Made by a program: the position numbers and the translations under genes
In this document: positions 56,345 through 60,189 of the stretch, one piece after another
Numbering within the stretch: the stretch's first letter is position 1
Layout of the letters: every line of letters starts with the position of its first letter
Origin: Squalus acanthias
Taxonomy: Eukaryota
Reading direction: 5' to 3'
Length of the DNA: 64,000 nt
NCBI GenBank assembly: GCA_030390025.1
Contig: CM059431.1
Location: forward strand, 110,610,001-110,674,000
The notes under the pieces: generated by a model
Databases searched by the model: none
The model's input: only the letters and a program-made list of their open reading frames with translations
What the model was told of the DNA's origin: nothing

Positions 56345-56615
56345 TCAACAACAACAAAAACAACAACTTACATTTATATAGCGCCTTAAAAGTCCCAAGG
56401 TGCTTCACAGGAGCGATTATCAATCAAAATTCGACATCGAGCCACATAACGAGATATTAGCATAGGTGACCAAAAGCTTGGTCAAAGAGGTAGGTTTTAA
56501 GGAGCGTCCTAAAGGAGGAGAGAGAGGTGGAGAGGCAGAGAGGTTTAGGGATGGAATTCCAGAGCTTAGGTCCTGGGCAGCTGAAGGTAATAGGCCGCCA
56601 ATGGTGGAGCGAGTA
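56345..56615 (-). mobile_element. L2 3' tail fragment
   Basis: (CAA)n tail; same family as 46735. Confidence 0.8.
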
Positions 56616-56674
56616 AAAAGCTAACTGCTGTGGCTGAGGTAAGTTTGCAGATTGGCAGCTGTTTATAAATTGCT

Positions 56675-56880
56675 AATGTGAGAAGTCGCACAACACCAGG
56701 TTATAGTCCAACAGTTTTATTTGAAATCACAAGCTTTCGGAGCGCTGCTCCACTTCACCTGACGAAGGAGCAGCGCTCCGAAAGCTTGTGATTTCAAATA
56801 AAACTGTTGGACTATAACCTGGTGTTGTGCGACTTCTCACATTTGTCCACCCCAGTCCAACACCGGCATCTCCACATCAT
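56675..56880 (+). mobile_element. Palindromic Penelope-derived mini-element with hammerhead core (flip isomer)
   Basis: Perfect 77-bp arms at 56675-56751 and 56767-56843, loop ACTTCACCTGACGAA, unique tail to 56880, TSD TATAAATTGCTA. Confidence 0.85.
56755..56791 (+). ncRNA. Candidate minimal type I hammerhead ribozyme
   Basis: UCAC-CUGACGA-A-GGAGC agc GCUCC-GAAA-GCUU-GUGA: stem I UCAC/GUGA, stem II GGAGC/GCUCC, palindromic stem III AGCU. Confidence 0.65.
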
Positions 56881-57411
56881 ATAAATTGCTAGTTCCATGT
56901 TAGAAGAAACCAGCAGGAAATTACTGGTTTAGGGTCTCTTTTTTGTAAAAAAAAATGCTGTTTGTTCATTGTAGCTTGCCTATGTGTTTAGATTTGTTTC
57001 TGTTTTATGAACACATTATTAGGTGCAAGTGTGAAAGAAGTTTTATAAGTGTGACACTTTCAAGTGAGTTAGACGCAAGACTTTTAGATATATTATAACT
57101 TTTTAAATCATAGGTCAAGTCTGATGGAGATGTTTATAATAATATGAATATCTTTAAAAACAAAATCTGTACTTCAGCCAGTTTAAAATGCACTCCACTA
57201 ACACATTTTCTCAACTTTAGAGTGTGGTGATATCACGTTGGCCTCACCGTTCGTTCCTCAGATGTCAGACTGCACATCATCAGGAGTGGGGGAGGGGTGG
57301 AGATGGATGTGAACTTTGTGGTTCAGGCTGTGAGGAGACTGGCCATGGAAAGGGTCTGGAAATAATTACTGCTATCGGGGAAAAGGGAATTGTCTGGAAA
57401 CCTCGGCTTAC

Positions 57412-57510
57412 CCCTCGTTCAGATTCCAGAAGCTCTGCTTTGACTCTTGCGGCCGGCATCCCGTCAAGCATTAACATTATGTTCTCAGAGGCGTCTTTGC
57501 TGTTCGAGCA
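57412..57510 (-). CDS. KLF12: KLF12 small upstream coding exon (equivalent to human exon 3)
   Basis: Translates CSNSKDASENIMLMLDGMPAARVKAELLESERG (human, recalled: ...ENRMLMLDGMPAVRVKTELLESEQG). Polypyrimidine tract and ccgcAG acceptor at 57512-57511, donor GGG|GTAAGC at 57411. Length 99 nt, phase 0-0; joins in frame to the exon starting at 3462. Confidence 0.93.
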
Positions 57511-59138
57511 CTGCGGAGAAAAGTAGAAAATAGTCATATGTCAGAGGGCCATTTTTGCACTCTTTCCACCCCACCCCCACCCCCACCCTCACTCACTCCA
57601 GCAGAAATGTCTAAAAAAGAATACTAGTTATTGCAATCGTACAACTTGAACTATTCAGACACTTAGCTTGCATCCCGGGGCATCAGGCACCACTGCGGTT
57701 TACTCTGCTGTCTAGGCCAGAGAGTGTCAACGGGCTAACTTTGGTGTTCTGGGGGGGGGGTGGTCCTCGTGCACTGTGCCTCCCGCTCGGAGACCCAAGA
57801 GGACCTTGCCCTCCTCCTGCTTTGTTTTGAAATGCAAGCTCCCTTTCGGAATCCAGCCAGGGATACAAGAAGCGCAAATGCCTCAGGCTACATTACTGAC
57901 AGACATTGAAGGATGAACGGATGGAACTGGGCCCCCTTGAGGAAGCATTGCTCAAAGGGAAAGCAGCTGCCACACATAAAAATATCCCTGCAACGCAGAA
58001 GTGGAACAGTTCAGGGCGAGGAAGAGATTTGAGAAATTCATGATTAATGAACTGTTTAGAAAAAAAAAAGAAGCTTTTTTTCCCTCACCACCCTATTACG
58101 AGCTGATTTCACAATATTTCACGACTCACTAAATTCATCATTAAAACGGTCCCGAGAAAAGTAGGGCCATGCTTTGCATTTGTTTATTGATCGAGGTACA
58201 TCACTTAAAGGGATCAAAGTCAAGTTTACCTATTCTGCTGACCTTCCCCAGCCCATTGTCTTCCCTTTACTTCACCCAGTCATGATTTTGATTGCCTTTG
58301 TGCTTGTTTTGAACACGATTTTTGCCACGCAATACCACAGAAGAGCAGAAACCCAAGTTCATCTGCTGCCTGAATATCCTTCTAGCTCCTGAATTATATG
58401 ATCACCCTGCCTTTAACTAAATATTTCTCCCCCTTCCGCGACCCTCCACTTTAGCAGTTTTTCCCCTGGATTTTTCCCCCTATAAAATGTTCACTATTTT
58501 CCTGTACACGCCACAGGGTAAGAATTTCACCGATTGTCACAGCATGGTGTGCGTGCGCTTGTGAACATTTCCCCTGCATACGGTTTTTAGCAAAATCAAA
58601 CAAGTTCTGCAGTGGGGGGGAAACAGAGTAAGAGAATCTGAGAGGTACAATGGGAGAATATTCGGCCTGTTGAGGCTGTGAAGATTTGAGGAGGTCAGAG
58701 GTTGGGAAGATTGGAAGTGGGAACACTTCTATATTGTGAACCAGTTTGAAAAAAGTGTCCACCAAAACACGAGTAAAAGAAATGGTTATTTTTCAGTGCA
58801 TGGAATCATGTTACAAAGGGCTTGCCTGATGCTTATACATTTGAAAGTGCAAGGAGGTATCAGCAATTAATATTTAAAAAAAAATACAAGAGGAAGACTG
58901 CCACAGAAGCAAACCTGGGGGGACCAAATTAAAATTTGAAATCTTTATTGTTTGATTAATGCAAGATCACCGAGGTTGGAGGTCACGCAGTTGAGCTTGA
59001 CACTGTGCAGCTACAATTGGTCCCAATGTGGAAGTCCAAAAAAAAAAATCAACAATATTGAAATTGCGATGGGAGGACTTCATTTTTACAGCAGCAAAAA
59101 GCTGGAAACAAAAGCACAAAAAAAAGTTAAAAACTATT

Positions 59139-59845
59139 GGGGTAGAAATTGGAACCTTGATGCGGCCATTTTATGGGTGCAACGAGGGCCTATTTCGCAG
59201 AGCAACCTGCTGTGCCCCATCCGTGCCGGGGGCTTGGGCGCCACCATATTGGCATAGGCGGTTGCCCAGGTGCCCACCTGAAACGGGCATTTGACTCCCT
59301 TACATATGTAAATGAGGGGCCTAACACCCACTGAGGACTCCTGCACTAACTTGGTCGGCAATGAGTGGAGCATCAAGATTCTTCAGAGGTCACTGCAGCC
59401 TAAGCAGCAGCTGCCGCCAAAAACCTAATTTCCTTTTTTACCCCCCCTAAACTTTCCCCATGGAGCCAGGAAAAGCAGCAGGAGTGCTCCTCCCAACTCC
59501 ACAGCATTCATGTAATTGCCGGGCTGCAATTGGCCTCCCACCCATTGCCCTTTCACCCCCGCCACCCCAGGAATTACCTTCGGGCTGCTGCCACGGAGGA
59601 GGGTGACCTGAAATTGAAACCCTCACAATGGGCGAGCTGCCTCTGTAGTGATGATAAGTGTAATAATTTGGGTGCACTGCCGGCAATGAGGCCTGAGTCC
59701 CAATTCCAGGTGCGCCTCGGGCATCCCAGTTGGGGTGCGCTGCTGAGGAGGCCTGAATCTGTAAATGGTTTTGGGGGCCTCCCAAATGCTGGCTTCAGGC
59801 AGTCGGTGCGACCGTTCCATCAACTCCACGCCCTGTTTCGGCCCC
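59139..59845. mobile_element. GC-rich TIR-like element (Harbinger-like)
   Basis: GGGGTAGAAATTGG start and TTTCGGCCCC end. Confidence 0.45.
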
Positions 59846-59870
59846 TCACAATCTCTTATTTATAAACACC

Positions 59871-60080
59871 TGTGAGAAGTCGCACAACACCAGGTTATAG
59901 TCCAACAGCTTTATTTGAAATCACAAGCTTTCGGAGCGCTGCTCCTTCGTCAGGTGAAGTGGAGCAGCGCTCCGAAAGCTTGTGATTTCAAATAAAGCTG
60001 TTGGACTATAACCTGGTGTTGTGCGACTTCTCACATTTGTCCACCCCAGTCCAACACCGGCATCTCCACATCATGGCTAT
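59871..60080 (+). mobile_element. Palindromic Penelope-derived mini-element (flop isomer; hammerhead core on the minus strand)
   Basis: Perfect 75-bp arms at 59871-59945 and 59961-60035, loop TTCGTCAGGTGAAGT, same tail as the first copy, TSD TATAAACACC. Confidence 0.85.
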
Positions 60081-60189
60081 TATAAACACCTGGTTAAGAA
60101 CTTTTAGTTCTTTCTCTGAAGCATGTCCTCTCGGTAAGTTTCGTTTGGCGTACGATCTTGGAGTATTACTTCTAAAAAAAGTCAAATTG

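What the first reader, a model, noticed from the sequence alone, without database searches (positions are those of the whole stretch)
56664..60092. Flip/flop hairpin mini-retroelements carrying a hammerhead ribozyme core
Seen: two ~205-bp near-identical insertions. Each is a perfect palindrome (77- and 75-bp arms) followed by the same unique tail on the right (TGTCCACCCCAGTCCAACACCGGCATCTCCACATCAT). The 15-nt loop is ACTTCACCTGACGAA in copy 1 and its exact reverse complement in copy 2, so they are flip and flop isomers relative to the tail. The one arm substitution I see between the copies occurs symmetrically in both arms (CAGTTTT/AAAACTG versus CAGCTTT/AAAGCTG). Each copy has its own TSD. 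Known: Penelope-like elements carry minimal hammerheads in pLTRs and often have inverted ends; flip/flop ends are typical of hairpin-primed replication, as in parvovirus ITRs. Inference: this is a non-autonomous ribozyme-bearing element whose second arm is recopied from the first, by fold-back synthesis during mobilisation or by later conversion.
Basis: partly seen in the sequence, partly recalled or inferred. Interest (0 to 1): 0.85.

Follow-up and report, generated by a model that had tools for sequence, protein, structure and literature searches.

The report
Stub insertions of a Penelope-like retroelement
The two small palindromes are real, but they are very short head-to-head insertions of the first 92-129 bases of an active Penelope-like jumping gene, and their "flipped" centres are only two of many ways in which the two halves get joined.

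Summary
In detail: two about 205-bp palindromes, the same 37-nt tail, reverse-complement 15-nt centres and private target-site duplications (TSDs). The flip/flop reading is not supported. Each arm is a copy of the 5' leader of an endonuclease-bearing Penelope-like element (PLE). That leader runs from a probable transcription start (TATA box at -30, initiator-like TCACTTC) through a minimal hammerhead (+4 to +40) to position +92. The tail is +93 to +129 and runs into the ORF's ATG. Copy 1 lacks 15 nt of its left arm and copy 2 lacks 15 nt of its right arm.

In an unbiased sample of 97 tail-bearing copies, 56 are head-to-head pairs with 42 different junctions. None is copy-1-like and one is copy-2-like. 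The tail-less arm is the more complete in 28 and the less complete in 24. The arms diverge independently. Of 20 centre-anchored palindromes, 18 show exactly one tail; in 2 the other arm end was not found.

This fits published PLE biology: an inverted copy, a one-sided tail, and priming of both target strands at two adjacent RNA sites. These are dead by-products, not a self-propagating mini-element. The hammerhead is a PLE-type minimal motif that Rfam does not detect. New member of a known kind.

The parts
56665..56675 (.). Left target-site duplication of copy 1 (ATAAATTGCTA)
   Evidence: The same 11 nt occur at 56881-56891. Family-wide, a shared word of 8 nt or more flanks 46 of 56 copies, against 1 of 56 in mismatched controls.
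56675..56751 (-). Copy 1, tail-less arm. It is a cDNA copy of leader positions +92 to +16 (RNA sense lies on the minus strand) and stops 15 nt short of the RNA 5' end.
   Evidence: repeat I3. Alignment to the longer copies L058 and L075.
56752..56843 (+). Copy 1, tail-side arm.
   Evidence: In longer copies the upstream continuation ...CTATATGCATCTCTTC precedes ACTTCAC.
56755..56791 (+). Minimal hammerhead motif: helix I UCAC/GUGA, core CUGACGA, an unpaired A, helix II GGAGC-AGC-GCUCC, GAAA, and the palindromic AGCU. The predicted cut lies between 56787 and 56788.
   Evidence: Read. The features match the PLE min-HHR description in PMC4209133. A scan found 148 such motifs in 331,806 bases of fetched DNA and 0 in a shuffled control. 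Rfam gave no hammerhead match at E<=10.
56844..56880 (+). Copy 1 tail (+93 to +129), AC-rich, ending just before the element's ATG.
   Evidence: The tail is 36-38 nt long in 53 of 97 sampled copies.
56881..56891 (.). Right target-site duplication of copy 1
59860..59870 (.). Left target-site duplication of copy 2 (TTATAAACACC; the next two bases, TG, are shared with the element end)
59871..59960 (-). Copy 2, tail-less arm. It is a cDNA copy of +90 to +1 and therefore complete to the RNA 5' end. It carries the whole minimal hammerhead on the minus strand (59921-59957).
59961..60037 (+). Copy 2, tail-side arm. It covers +16 to +92 only, so the CUGACGA box is missing and the hammerhead on this strand is incomplete.
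60038..60079 (+). Copy 2 tail: 37 nt plus GGCTA, which belongs to the start of the element's ORF (ATG GCT A..).
   Evidence: The tail extended by GGCT occurs 1073 times in the genome.
60080..60090 (.). Right target-site duplication of copy 2

Best explanation
Both features are leader-only, head-to-head insertions of an active endonuclease-bearing Penelope-like element (PLE).

Shown here:
- The 92-nt arm unit and the 37-nt tail are the first 129 nt downstream of a TATA/initiator promoter in the element's pseudo-LTR, and the tail runs into the ATG of an 891-892-aa RT plus GIY-YIG ORF.
- Arm 5' ends pile up at +1.
- The outer end of the tail-less arm sits at about +92 and the tail ends at about +129 to +138.
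- The centre differs from copy to copy.
- Of 20 centre-anchored palindromes checked directly, 18 carry one tail and one tail-less end, and in 2 the other arm end was not found.

Inferred mechanism:
1. The endonuclease makes a staggered cut in AT-rich DNA.
2. Each of the two 3' ends primes reverse transcription at one of two adjacent internal sites of the same template RNA. Site A is at +92 and site B at about +129.
3. Because these sites lie close behind the transcription start, both cDNAs run off the RNA 5' end after 92-129 nt.
4. The two cDNA ends are joined with 0-4 nt of microhomology or a few filler bases, which sets the centre anew at each insertion.

On this reading the window's copy 1 and copy 2 differ only in which arm lost 15 nt at the joint. 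The copies are dead on arrival, with no promoter and no ORF. The hammerhead is a passenger of the leader, and most templates were uncut when copied.
For: Anatomy and parent:
- Searches show the order pLTR, TATA at -30, TCA(+1)CTTC, hammerhead, tail, ATG.
- L075 is a single full-length copy of the same subfamily, with its 5' end at -5 to -7, a downstream pLTR, the tail and a TSD.
- The ORF matches RVT_1 at E 3e-8 and 3e-9 and GIY-YIG at 21.6 bits, E 2.7e-4. A DKG motif is seen in the translation.
- Tandem copies lie 3137-3142 bp apart, and 35 of 150 scored N-terminal matches lie in open frames of 917 aa or more.

Junctions (unbiased sample: the first 100 places, 97 kept after dropping three with the same 3' flank):
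- 56 are head-to-head, 22 single-arm, 12 long and 7 hold another inverted piece.
- There are 42 junction classes among the 56.
- 26 of 112 arm ends lie exactly at +1, and 83 of 112 lie at or upstream of +9.
- At the joint, 29 copies show a 1-4 nt overlap, 13 are blunt and 12 hold filler.
- The tail-less arm is the more complete in 28, equal in 4 and the less complete in 24.

Arms: arm-to-arm mismatches are 95 of 5510, against 45 + 49 private changes. The subfamily marker at +52 agrees between arms in 68 of 73.

Tail rule: 18 of 20 centre-anchored palindromes show one tail and one tail-less end. In the other 2 my search did not find the other arm end. None showed two tails or no tail.

TSDs: median 12 nt; 46 of 56 share 8 nt or more.

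Literature:
- PMC8557442 (passages): an adjacent inverted 5'-truncated copy and a 30-40-bp tail at one end only.
- PMC3846280 (passages): inverted pLTR, a 31-bp tail, and TATA plus TCACT.
- PMC11167929 (section 3 part 1 and passages): both strands are cleaved and extended, two adjacent internal RT start sites are separated by the tail, cleavage prefers AT-rich DNA, a dimer is predicted, and hammerhead cleavage is not needed.
Against: - Use of one RNA by two polymerases is inferred only. It rests on the 68 of 73 agreement at a single marker site and on the one-tail rule.
- 5 of 73 copies have discordant arms, more than the roughly 1 that I estimate from the mutation rate. So some insertions may use two RNAs, or switch templates.
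- The transcription start is inferred from the promoter motifs and the pile-up of ends. No RNA 5'-end data were available.
- Some arms reach -7, -20, -24, -40 or -73, so some templates start further upstream.
- The palindromes were not verified in long reads.
- The one-tail check did not find the second arm end in 2 of 20 loci.
- The clade of the PLE was not determined.
Confidence: 0.8

Rival explanations
1. Fold-back (self-priming) synthesis. One cDNA is primed at the tail site, reaches the RNA 5' end, snaps back on itself and copies itself to make the second arm. This is the first reader's 'recopied arm' and is close to the self-priming idea in Arkhipova et al. 2013.
For: The arms nearly always share the source subfamily (68 of 73). 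Of 20 centre-anchored palindromes, 18 show one tail and one tail-less end. Many junctions have short overlaps. PMC3846280 discusses self-priming as an explanation of palindromes at inverted junctions (passage).
Against: In a fold-back the tail-bearing first strand must be the more complete arm. Yet the tail-less arm is the more complete in 28 of 56 copies, including window copy 2. Five copies have arms of different subfamilies. The fold-back also gives no reason why the second arm should stop at +92 (outer end mode 90-93). The in vitro work does give such a reason, because it found a second RT start site and extension of both strands.
Confidence: 0.12
2. Flip/flop isomers of a hairpin element. 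The loop is inverted relative to the tail by hairpin-primed replication, as in parvovirus ITRs, or by recombination between the arms.
For: In the two window copies the 15-nt centres are exact reverse complements.
Against: The full form of the centre is TTCGTCAGGTGAAGT|ACTTCACCTGACGAA. It is present whole at C1:28622522 and nearly whole in L016. The two window centres are its two halves. Centres of 7 to 30 nt occur among the first 50 listed palindrome loci, and none equals either window 15-mer (by eye). There are 42 junction classes in 56 copies.
Confidence: 0.02
3. A self-propagating non-autonomous mini-element (retrozyme- or SINE-like) that is transcribed as a palindrome and mobilised in trans by the PLE.
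For: Copy number is high: 2597 palindrome centres with both helix II copies intact. Non-LTR retrozymes are proposed to derive from PLE pLTRs (abstract of bioRxiv 10.64898/2026.07.22.740005).
Against: A palindromic master would pass on its junction, but junctions are almost all different, and the recurrent ones sit at microhomologies. The copies hold neither the TATA/initiator region nor the ORF start that lies downstream of the RT start sites. In the anole element, RNA downstream of the start sites was required for the reaction. No tandem arrays of the mini-unit were seen in the loci examined.
Confidence: 0.05
4. Assembly or fold-back sequencing artefact.
For: PLE inverted structures are known to trouble assemblies (PMC8557442 passage). 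I could not inspect long reads.
Against: Thousands of loci carry unique flanks and TSDs. Short-read contigs of a second sample (X5) run from unique flank into the element edges at both window copies, but by only 23 and 25 nt, below the tool's 31-nt bridging rule.
Confidence: 0.01

Closest known systems
Insertions of endonuclease-bearing Penelope-like elements with an adjacent inverted 5'-truncated copy and a one-sided 30-40-bp 'tail' (Evgen'ev & Arkhipova 2005 and Arkhipova 2006, as cited in PMC8557442; Arkhipova et al. 2013, PMC3846280)
   Same: Shared features are the inverted pair, a tail at one end only (37 nt here), TSDs of about 10-13 bp, a pLTR with a TATA box plus a TCACT-type initiator, a pLTR that overlaps the ORF start, tandem full-length copies, and an RT plus C-terminal GIY-YIG ORF.
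   Different: Here both members of the pair are only 77-92 nt long, because both cDNAs start just behind the transcription start and run off the RNA 5' end. Such stubs make up more than half of the sampled tail-bearing copies (56 of 97 head-to-head).
Two adjacent internal RT initiation sites and extension of both target strands by the Anolis Poseidon element PAc in vitro (Frangieh et al. 2024, PMC11167929)
   Same: Two start sites lie one tail length apart. Both strands are used. The targets are AT-rich. The sites are near the pLTR/ORF junction, and most templates are not hammerhead-cleaved.
   Different: In PAc the sites lie 111-118 nt inside the ORF. Here they lie at -37 and at about 0 to +9 relative to the ATG. 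My evidence is the pattern of genomic insertions, not biochemistry. The rule of one site per strand and the use of one RNA are my inferences.
Minimal hammerhead ribozymes of PLE pLTRs (Cervera & de la Pena 2014, PMC4209133)
   Same: Shared features are a short helix I (4 bp), an unpaired base between A9 and G10.1, the G10.1-C11.1 pair, the palindromic 15.2-16.2 (AGCU), no helix III, and motifs found in pairs on opposite strands.
   Different: Helix II has 5 bp with a 3-nt loop, against the 7-8 bp reported for Schistosoma. Cleavage was not tested here. The motif starts 3 nt behind the probable transcription start.
L1 twin priming
   Same: Both ends of a staggered break prime cDNA synthesis on one RNA, which gives an inverted arrangement joined by microhomology.
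   Different: Twin priming inverts without duplicating. Here the same RNA stretch is copied twice, which gives a palindrome.

Membership tests
Endonuclease-bearing Penelope-like element (source of the arms) | Single ORF with a reverse transcriptase | tested here: met
   RVT_1 matches at E 3.1e-8 and 2.8e-9, above the curated cut-off, in the 892-aa and 891-aa ORFs of L074 and L075. A DKG motif (PADKGGAIVI) is seen in the translation; its diagnostic value is taken from the passage in PMC8557442.
Endonuclease-bearing Penelope-like element (source of the arms) | C-terminal GIY-YIG endonuclease | tested here: met
   GIY-YIG (PF01541) matches at E 2.7e-4 with 21.6 bits, just below the 22.6-bit cut-off, in the last 220 aa. 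The motifs VVYLIRC...WYIGET...R...E...N and an upstream Cys/His cluster are seen.
Endonuclease-bearing Penelope-like element (source of the arms) | Pseudo-LTRs arising from tandem or partial-tandem copies | tested here: met
   Tandem ORFs lie 3142 bp apart in L074. L075 has a 5' leader plus a full downstream pLTR.
Endonuclease-bearing Penelope-like element (source of the arms) | A 30-40-bp tail at one end only, with an adjacent inverted copy | tested here: met
   The tail is 36-38 nt in 53 of 97 copies, and 56 of 97 are head-to-head. One tail and one tail-less end were seen in 18 of 20 centre-anchored loci; in 2 the other end was not found.
Endonuclease-bearing Penelope-like element (source of the arms) | Placement in a named clade (Penelope/Poseidon, Neptune, Nematis) | not tested
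   No phylogeny was made. There was no hit to solved structures.
Hammerhead ribozyme, PLE-type minimal form | Conserved core: C3 U4 G5 A6 N7 G8 A9, G12 A13 A14, A15.1/U16.1 and H17 | tested here: met
   CUGACGA ... GAAA-GC-U-U is read. A scan found 148 motif hits in 331,806 bases and 0 in the shuffled control.
Hammerhead ribozyme, PLE-type minimal form | Helices I and II supported by covariation | tested here: inconclusive
   There is one compensatory change in helix I (UCAC/GUGA to UUAC/GUAA, second copy in L003). There is one in helix II (C-G to U-A, second copy in L019), plus G-U variants and four loop versions. That is too few independent changes for a statistical test.
Hammerhead ribozyme, PLE-type minimal form | Match to curated Rfam hammerhead models | tested here: not met
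   No hammerhead family matched at E<=10; the only matches were sub-threshold microRNA-hairpin models. This is expected for motifs without helix III, and Cervera & de la Pena used a dedicated descriptor for them.
Hammerhead ribozyme, PLE-type minimal form | Self-cleavage | not testable with these tools
   83 of 112 arms read through the predicted cut site, so most templates were uncut. The search for a cleavage footprint was inconclusive.
Flip/flop hairpin termini (parvovirus-ITR-like) | Two and only two orientations of an otherwise constant loop | tested here: not met
   There are 42 junction classes in 56 copies. Centres of 7-30 nt occur among the first 50 listed loci.

The most novel reading that the evidence does not exclude
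The genome's thousands of stub insertions record how PLE integration works in vivo. A two-headed particle sits on one RNA. One reverse-transcriptase protomer is primed by one target strand at site A (+92) and the other by the second strand at site B (+129). On this view every head-to-head insertion carries one tail, both arms come from the same template, and each arm has its own 5' extent. This would replace the self-priming model. It would also explain why most insertions of this family are leader-only: the initiation sites are repeated just behind the transcription start.
Probability: 0.45. Interest if true: 0.55.

Novelty: new member of a known kind. Interest (0 to 1): 0.3.

Why it matters
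The integration mechanism of Penelope-like elements is poorly understood. The first in vitro system, published in 2024, reported two unusual features: both strands are primed, and reverse transcription starts at two adjacent internal sites. This family offers thousands of young natural insertions whose ends fall into the pattern that system predicts. They also add constraints of their own:
- 18 of 20 palindromes checked directly show one tail and one tail-less end;
- the arms almost always share a template (68 of 73 at the marker site);
- either arm may be the shorter one;
- most templates were not cut by the hammerhead.

There is a practical side too. Stubs like these can be mistaken for microRNA hairpins, because Rfam gives sub-threshold microRNA matches. 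They can also be mistaken for MITEs or for a new class of hairpin retroelement. Annotating them as PLE leader stubs avoids that.

Tried and rejected
- Rfam scan at E<=10: no hammerhead family matched; only sub-threshold microRNA models matched the long hairpin.
- L044/L061 as a parent copy: the ORF is broken after about 90 aa, so I used L074 and L075 instead.
- Footprint of hammerhead cleavage in the junctions. Arms that start at +36 to +38 are 5 of 35 internal ends in the sample. Among junctions with one complete arm (175 genome-wide), 19 of the first 100 listed read GAAGTGATTTC (counted by eye). That junction uses a 4-nt GTGA microhomology that is the helix I sequence itself. Blunt or filler joints are no more common at +37 (about 7) than at +34 (about 11) or +25 (about 15). 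The result is inconclusive.
- Sequencing runs: no RNA holder was listed, and all four runs laid are contigs that break at the repeat. They show neither the palindrome nor any RNA ends. Two runs guessed to be RNA cover the element, but DNA carry-over cannot be excluded.
- Solved structures: no hit for the ORF.
- A look-up by sequence in the scan's earlier findings found nothing. The look-up by words found the notes listed under earlier findings.
- A MITE or DNA-transposon reading was rejected, because the arms are the PLE leader and one end carries the PLE tail.
- Segmental duplication of the two window copies was rejected, because their TSDs, junctions and subfamily markers differ.
Full report
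**1.

Searches show two elements of about 205 bp. Copy 1 has perfectly complementary 77-nt arms (56675-56751 and 56767-56843) around a 15-nt centre, ACTTCACCTGACGAA, followed by a 37-nt tail (56844-56880). Copy 2 has 75 exactly shared arm bases around TTCGTCAGGTGAAGT, which is the exact reverse complement of copy 1's centre. It has the same tail (60038-60074), extended by GGCTA. The single T/C difference between the copies is mirrored in both arms. Each copy has its own 11-nt target-site duplication (TSD). The window holds no other piece of the family.

**2. The centre is not a loop with two states**

The window lies in a 3.7-Gb assembly of 3882 contigs, and the element is highly repeated there. 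Reading 30 copies showed that the sequence between the two GC-rich boxes differs from copy to copy. The longest form is TTCGTCAGGTGAAG(T)|ACTTCACCTGACGAA, which is itself a palindrome. So the true arm unit is 92 nt (ACTTCAC...CACATT). Copy 1 has lost 15 nt from the inner end of its left arm, and copy 2 has lost 15 nt from the inner end of its right arm.

A whole-genome pattern for the centre found 2597 loci, against 0 for the reversed control. Among the first 50 listed loci I counted centres of 7 to 30 nt by eye. None equals either window 15-mer. The commonest is the 16-mer TTCGTCAGGTGACGAA or its complement, in 7 of 50.

**3. Where the unit comes from**

Copies picked by a slightly longer tail (1073 exact matches) include longer ones. 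In these the unit is preceded by ...GACTATATATGCTGTGCCTATATGCATCTCTTC, and the tail runs on into ATG GCT ACT ATC GAC.... The TATA box starts at -30 relative to the A of ACTTCAC, and TCACTTC fits an initiator.

A search with the first 64 residues found 5890 candidates. Of the 150 scored, 35 lie in open frames of 917 aa or more, and several lie in tandem 3137-3142 bp apart.

L074 holds tandem ORFs of 892 aa, and L075 holds a single full-length copy of the window's own subfamily with an 891-aa ORF. The ORFs match RVT_1. They carry a C-terminal GIY-YIG domain, at 21.6 bits just under the Pfam cut-off, and a DKG motif.

L075 starts 5-7 nt upstream of ACTTCAC. It ends with a complete downstream pseudo-LTR, then the unit and the tail, and it has a TSD. 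This is a canonical endonuclease-bearing Penelope-like element (PLE). The arms of the window's palindromes are its 5' leader, and the tail is the last 37 nt before its start codon.

**4. An unbiased census**

The 40-mer across the arm/tail boundary occurs 6781 times, against 0 for the control. I fetched the first 100 places in genome order (plus loci already held) and aligned each to natural long copies. Three places with the same 3' flank as an earlier one were dropped, leaving 97:

| Class | Copies |
|---|---|
| Head-to-head pairs | 56 |
| Single arms | 22 |
| Running at least 165 nt upstream (longer copies) | 12 |
| Holding another inverted piece of the pLTR | 7 |

Findings for the 56 head-to-head pairs, unless noted:
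- They show 42 different combinations of arm ends. None is copy-1-like, and one (L110) is copy-2-like.
- Arm 5' ends peak sharply at +1 (15 right arms, 11 left arms). In total, 83 of 112 arm ends lie at or upstream of +9. Single arms also tend to start at +1 or +2 (5 of 22).
- The tail-less arm is the more complete in 28 copies, equal in 4 and the less complete in 24.
- The joint shows a 1-4 nt overlap in 29, is blunt in 13 and holds 1-10 nt of filler in 12.
- The outer end of the tail-less arm lies at +90 to +93 in 28 of 56 (range 76-100).
- Across all 97 copies, the tail is 36-38 nt in 53, 41-42 nt in 10 and 45-47 nt in 13.
- A flanking repeat of 8 nt or more is present in 46 of 56, against 1 of 56 when flanks of different copies are paired. 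The median is 12 nt.

**5. The arms**

One search covered 79 head-to-head copies. These include the 29, which were selected with copy 1 as the query, and L051 counted on both strands. The arms differ at 95 of 5510 compared positions.
- This is about the sum of the changes private to the left arm (45) and to the right arm (49). So the arms diverge independently after insertion, and later conversion is not needed.
It agrees between arms in 68 of 73 copies and disagrees in 5. Independent draws from the two subfamilies would give about half discordant. By my estimate, mutation alone would give about one.
- The two arms therefore nearly always come from the same template, or at least the same source locus.

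**6. One tail per insertion**

I compared by eye the first 49 palindrome centres with the list. Seventeen have an exact 40-mer beside them. I fetched 20 of those without one.
- Eighteen show one arm followed by a tail and the other arm followed by unrelated DNA. In L168 the tail carries an internal deletion and was recognised by eye.
- In two (L173, L174) one tail is present and my search did not find the other arm end.
- None lacked a tail, and none had two.
- Only L051, among the copies, has tails on both arms.

**7. Mechanism**

Published descriptions of PLE insertions already include three features: an inverted 5'-truncated copy next to the element, a 30-40-bp tail at one end only, and palindromes at the inverted junction (passages of PMC8557442 and PMC3846280). 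Frangieh et al. 2024 studied the anole element in vitro (section 3 part 1 and passages). They found that:
- both target strands are cleaved and extended;
- reverse transcription starts at two adjacent internal sites of the RNA;
- the tail is the stretch between these sites;
- cleavage prefers AT-rich DNA;
- the protein is predicted to be a dimer;
- hammerhead cleavage is not required.

The census here fits this point by point. The simplest reading is two cDNAs, one per target strand. One starts at +92 and the other at about +129. Both run to the 5' end of a leader RNA and are then joined.

A single cDNA that folds back on itself would explain the shared template and the single tail. It also requires the tail-bearing arm to be the more complete one, and this fails in 28 of 56 copies, including window copy 2. 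I therefore rank fold-back well below the two-cDNA model. The use of one RNA by two polymerases remains an inference.

Because the initiation sites lie only 92-129 nt behind the probable transcription start, any transcript from the element's promoter can give such stubs. That explains why they outnumber long copies.

**8. The hammerhead**

The unit carries:
- helix I, UCAC/GUGA;
- the core CUGACGA;
- an unpaired A;
- helix II, GGAGC-AGC-GCUCC;
- GAAA, followed by the palindrome AGCU.

These are the features listed for PLE minimal hammerheads, which are thought to act as dimers (PMC4209133, parts 1 and 2 read).

Rfam finds no hammerhead. That is expected for a motif without helix III.

A descriptor scan of 331,806 fetched bases gave 148 hits, all in this lineage, and 0 in a shuffled control. 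Two compensatory changes and several loop variants are consistent with the fold, but they are too few to prove it.

Most arms read through the predicted cut site, so most templates were uncut. A search for junctions that start at the cut site was confounded by the GTGA microhomology that helix I itself provides.

**9. What could not be done**

- No raw reads were available. The contigs of four runs break at the repeat.
- In a second sample, contigs run from unique flank 23 and 25 nt into the element edges. This is suggestive but below the tool's bridging rule.
- The PLE clade was not determined.
- I did not look at the supplementary files of the papers cited. They may hold closer comparisons, such as Fig. 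S2 of PMC11167929.

**10. Verdict**

The sequence features are real, young and well explained as leader-only, head-to-head insertions of an active Penelope-like element. The flip/flop interpretation is an accident of two junction variants lying in one window. The kind of structure is known, and the same reading was reached earlier in this scan on another genome (e1-7858806). What is new is the scale and the constraints the census puts on the integration mechanism.

Noticed in passing
L040 (C1:21326459 region) and L051: These are partial tandems. The unit plus a 108- or 117-nt 'tail' (71-80 nt into the ORF) is followed directly by a new ACTTCAC unit. It looks as if the polymerase jumped from the 5' end of one RNA to a third site, at about +200 to +209, of another RNA.
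   Followed up: partly
L077, L080, L155, L048 (3' flanks): Several independent insertions sit at the same position (TCTATTTATGAA or TCTATTTATAAA, followed by GCCCAGGATCCC) of what seems to be another repeat family. This suggests a preferred AT-rich target within that repeat.
   Followed up: no
window 56400-56660: The stretch just left of copy 1 is itself a very high-copy repeat: the summed contig depth is about as high as for the PLE stub. Its identity was not examined.
   Followed up: no
window 59282-59543: This stretch is moderately repeated. Its summed contig depth is 125-380, against about 6-20 for the neighbouring DNA.
   Followed up: no
genome-wide junction class GGTGAAGTGATTTC: This is the commonest junction between a complete arm and an internally truncated arm. 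It falls exactly at the predicted hammerhead cut site and uses the 4-nt helix I sequence as microhomology. It could be a footprint of cleaved RNA or simply the best available microhomology.
   Followed up: partly
L032, L078/L079 (C1:3.43-3.98 Mb): Three copies within 0.55 Mb share the same unusual junction (arms ending at -7 and -73). L078 and L079 also share their 3' flank, so these are probably local segmental duplications and not independent insertions.
   Followed up: partly
window 59900-60006 and 56722-56796: Rfam microRNA-precursor models (MIR7807, mir-1597, MIR396) match the long hairpins at E 4e-12 to 4e-5, below their gathering scores. This is a likely source of false microRNA calls.
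   Followed up: yes
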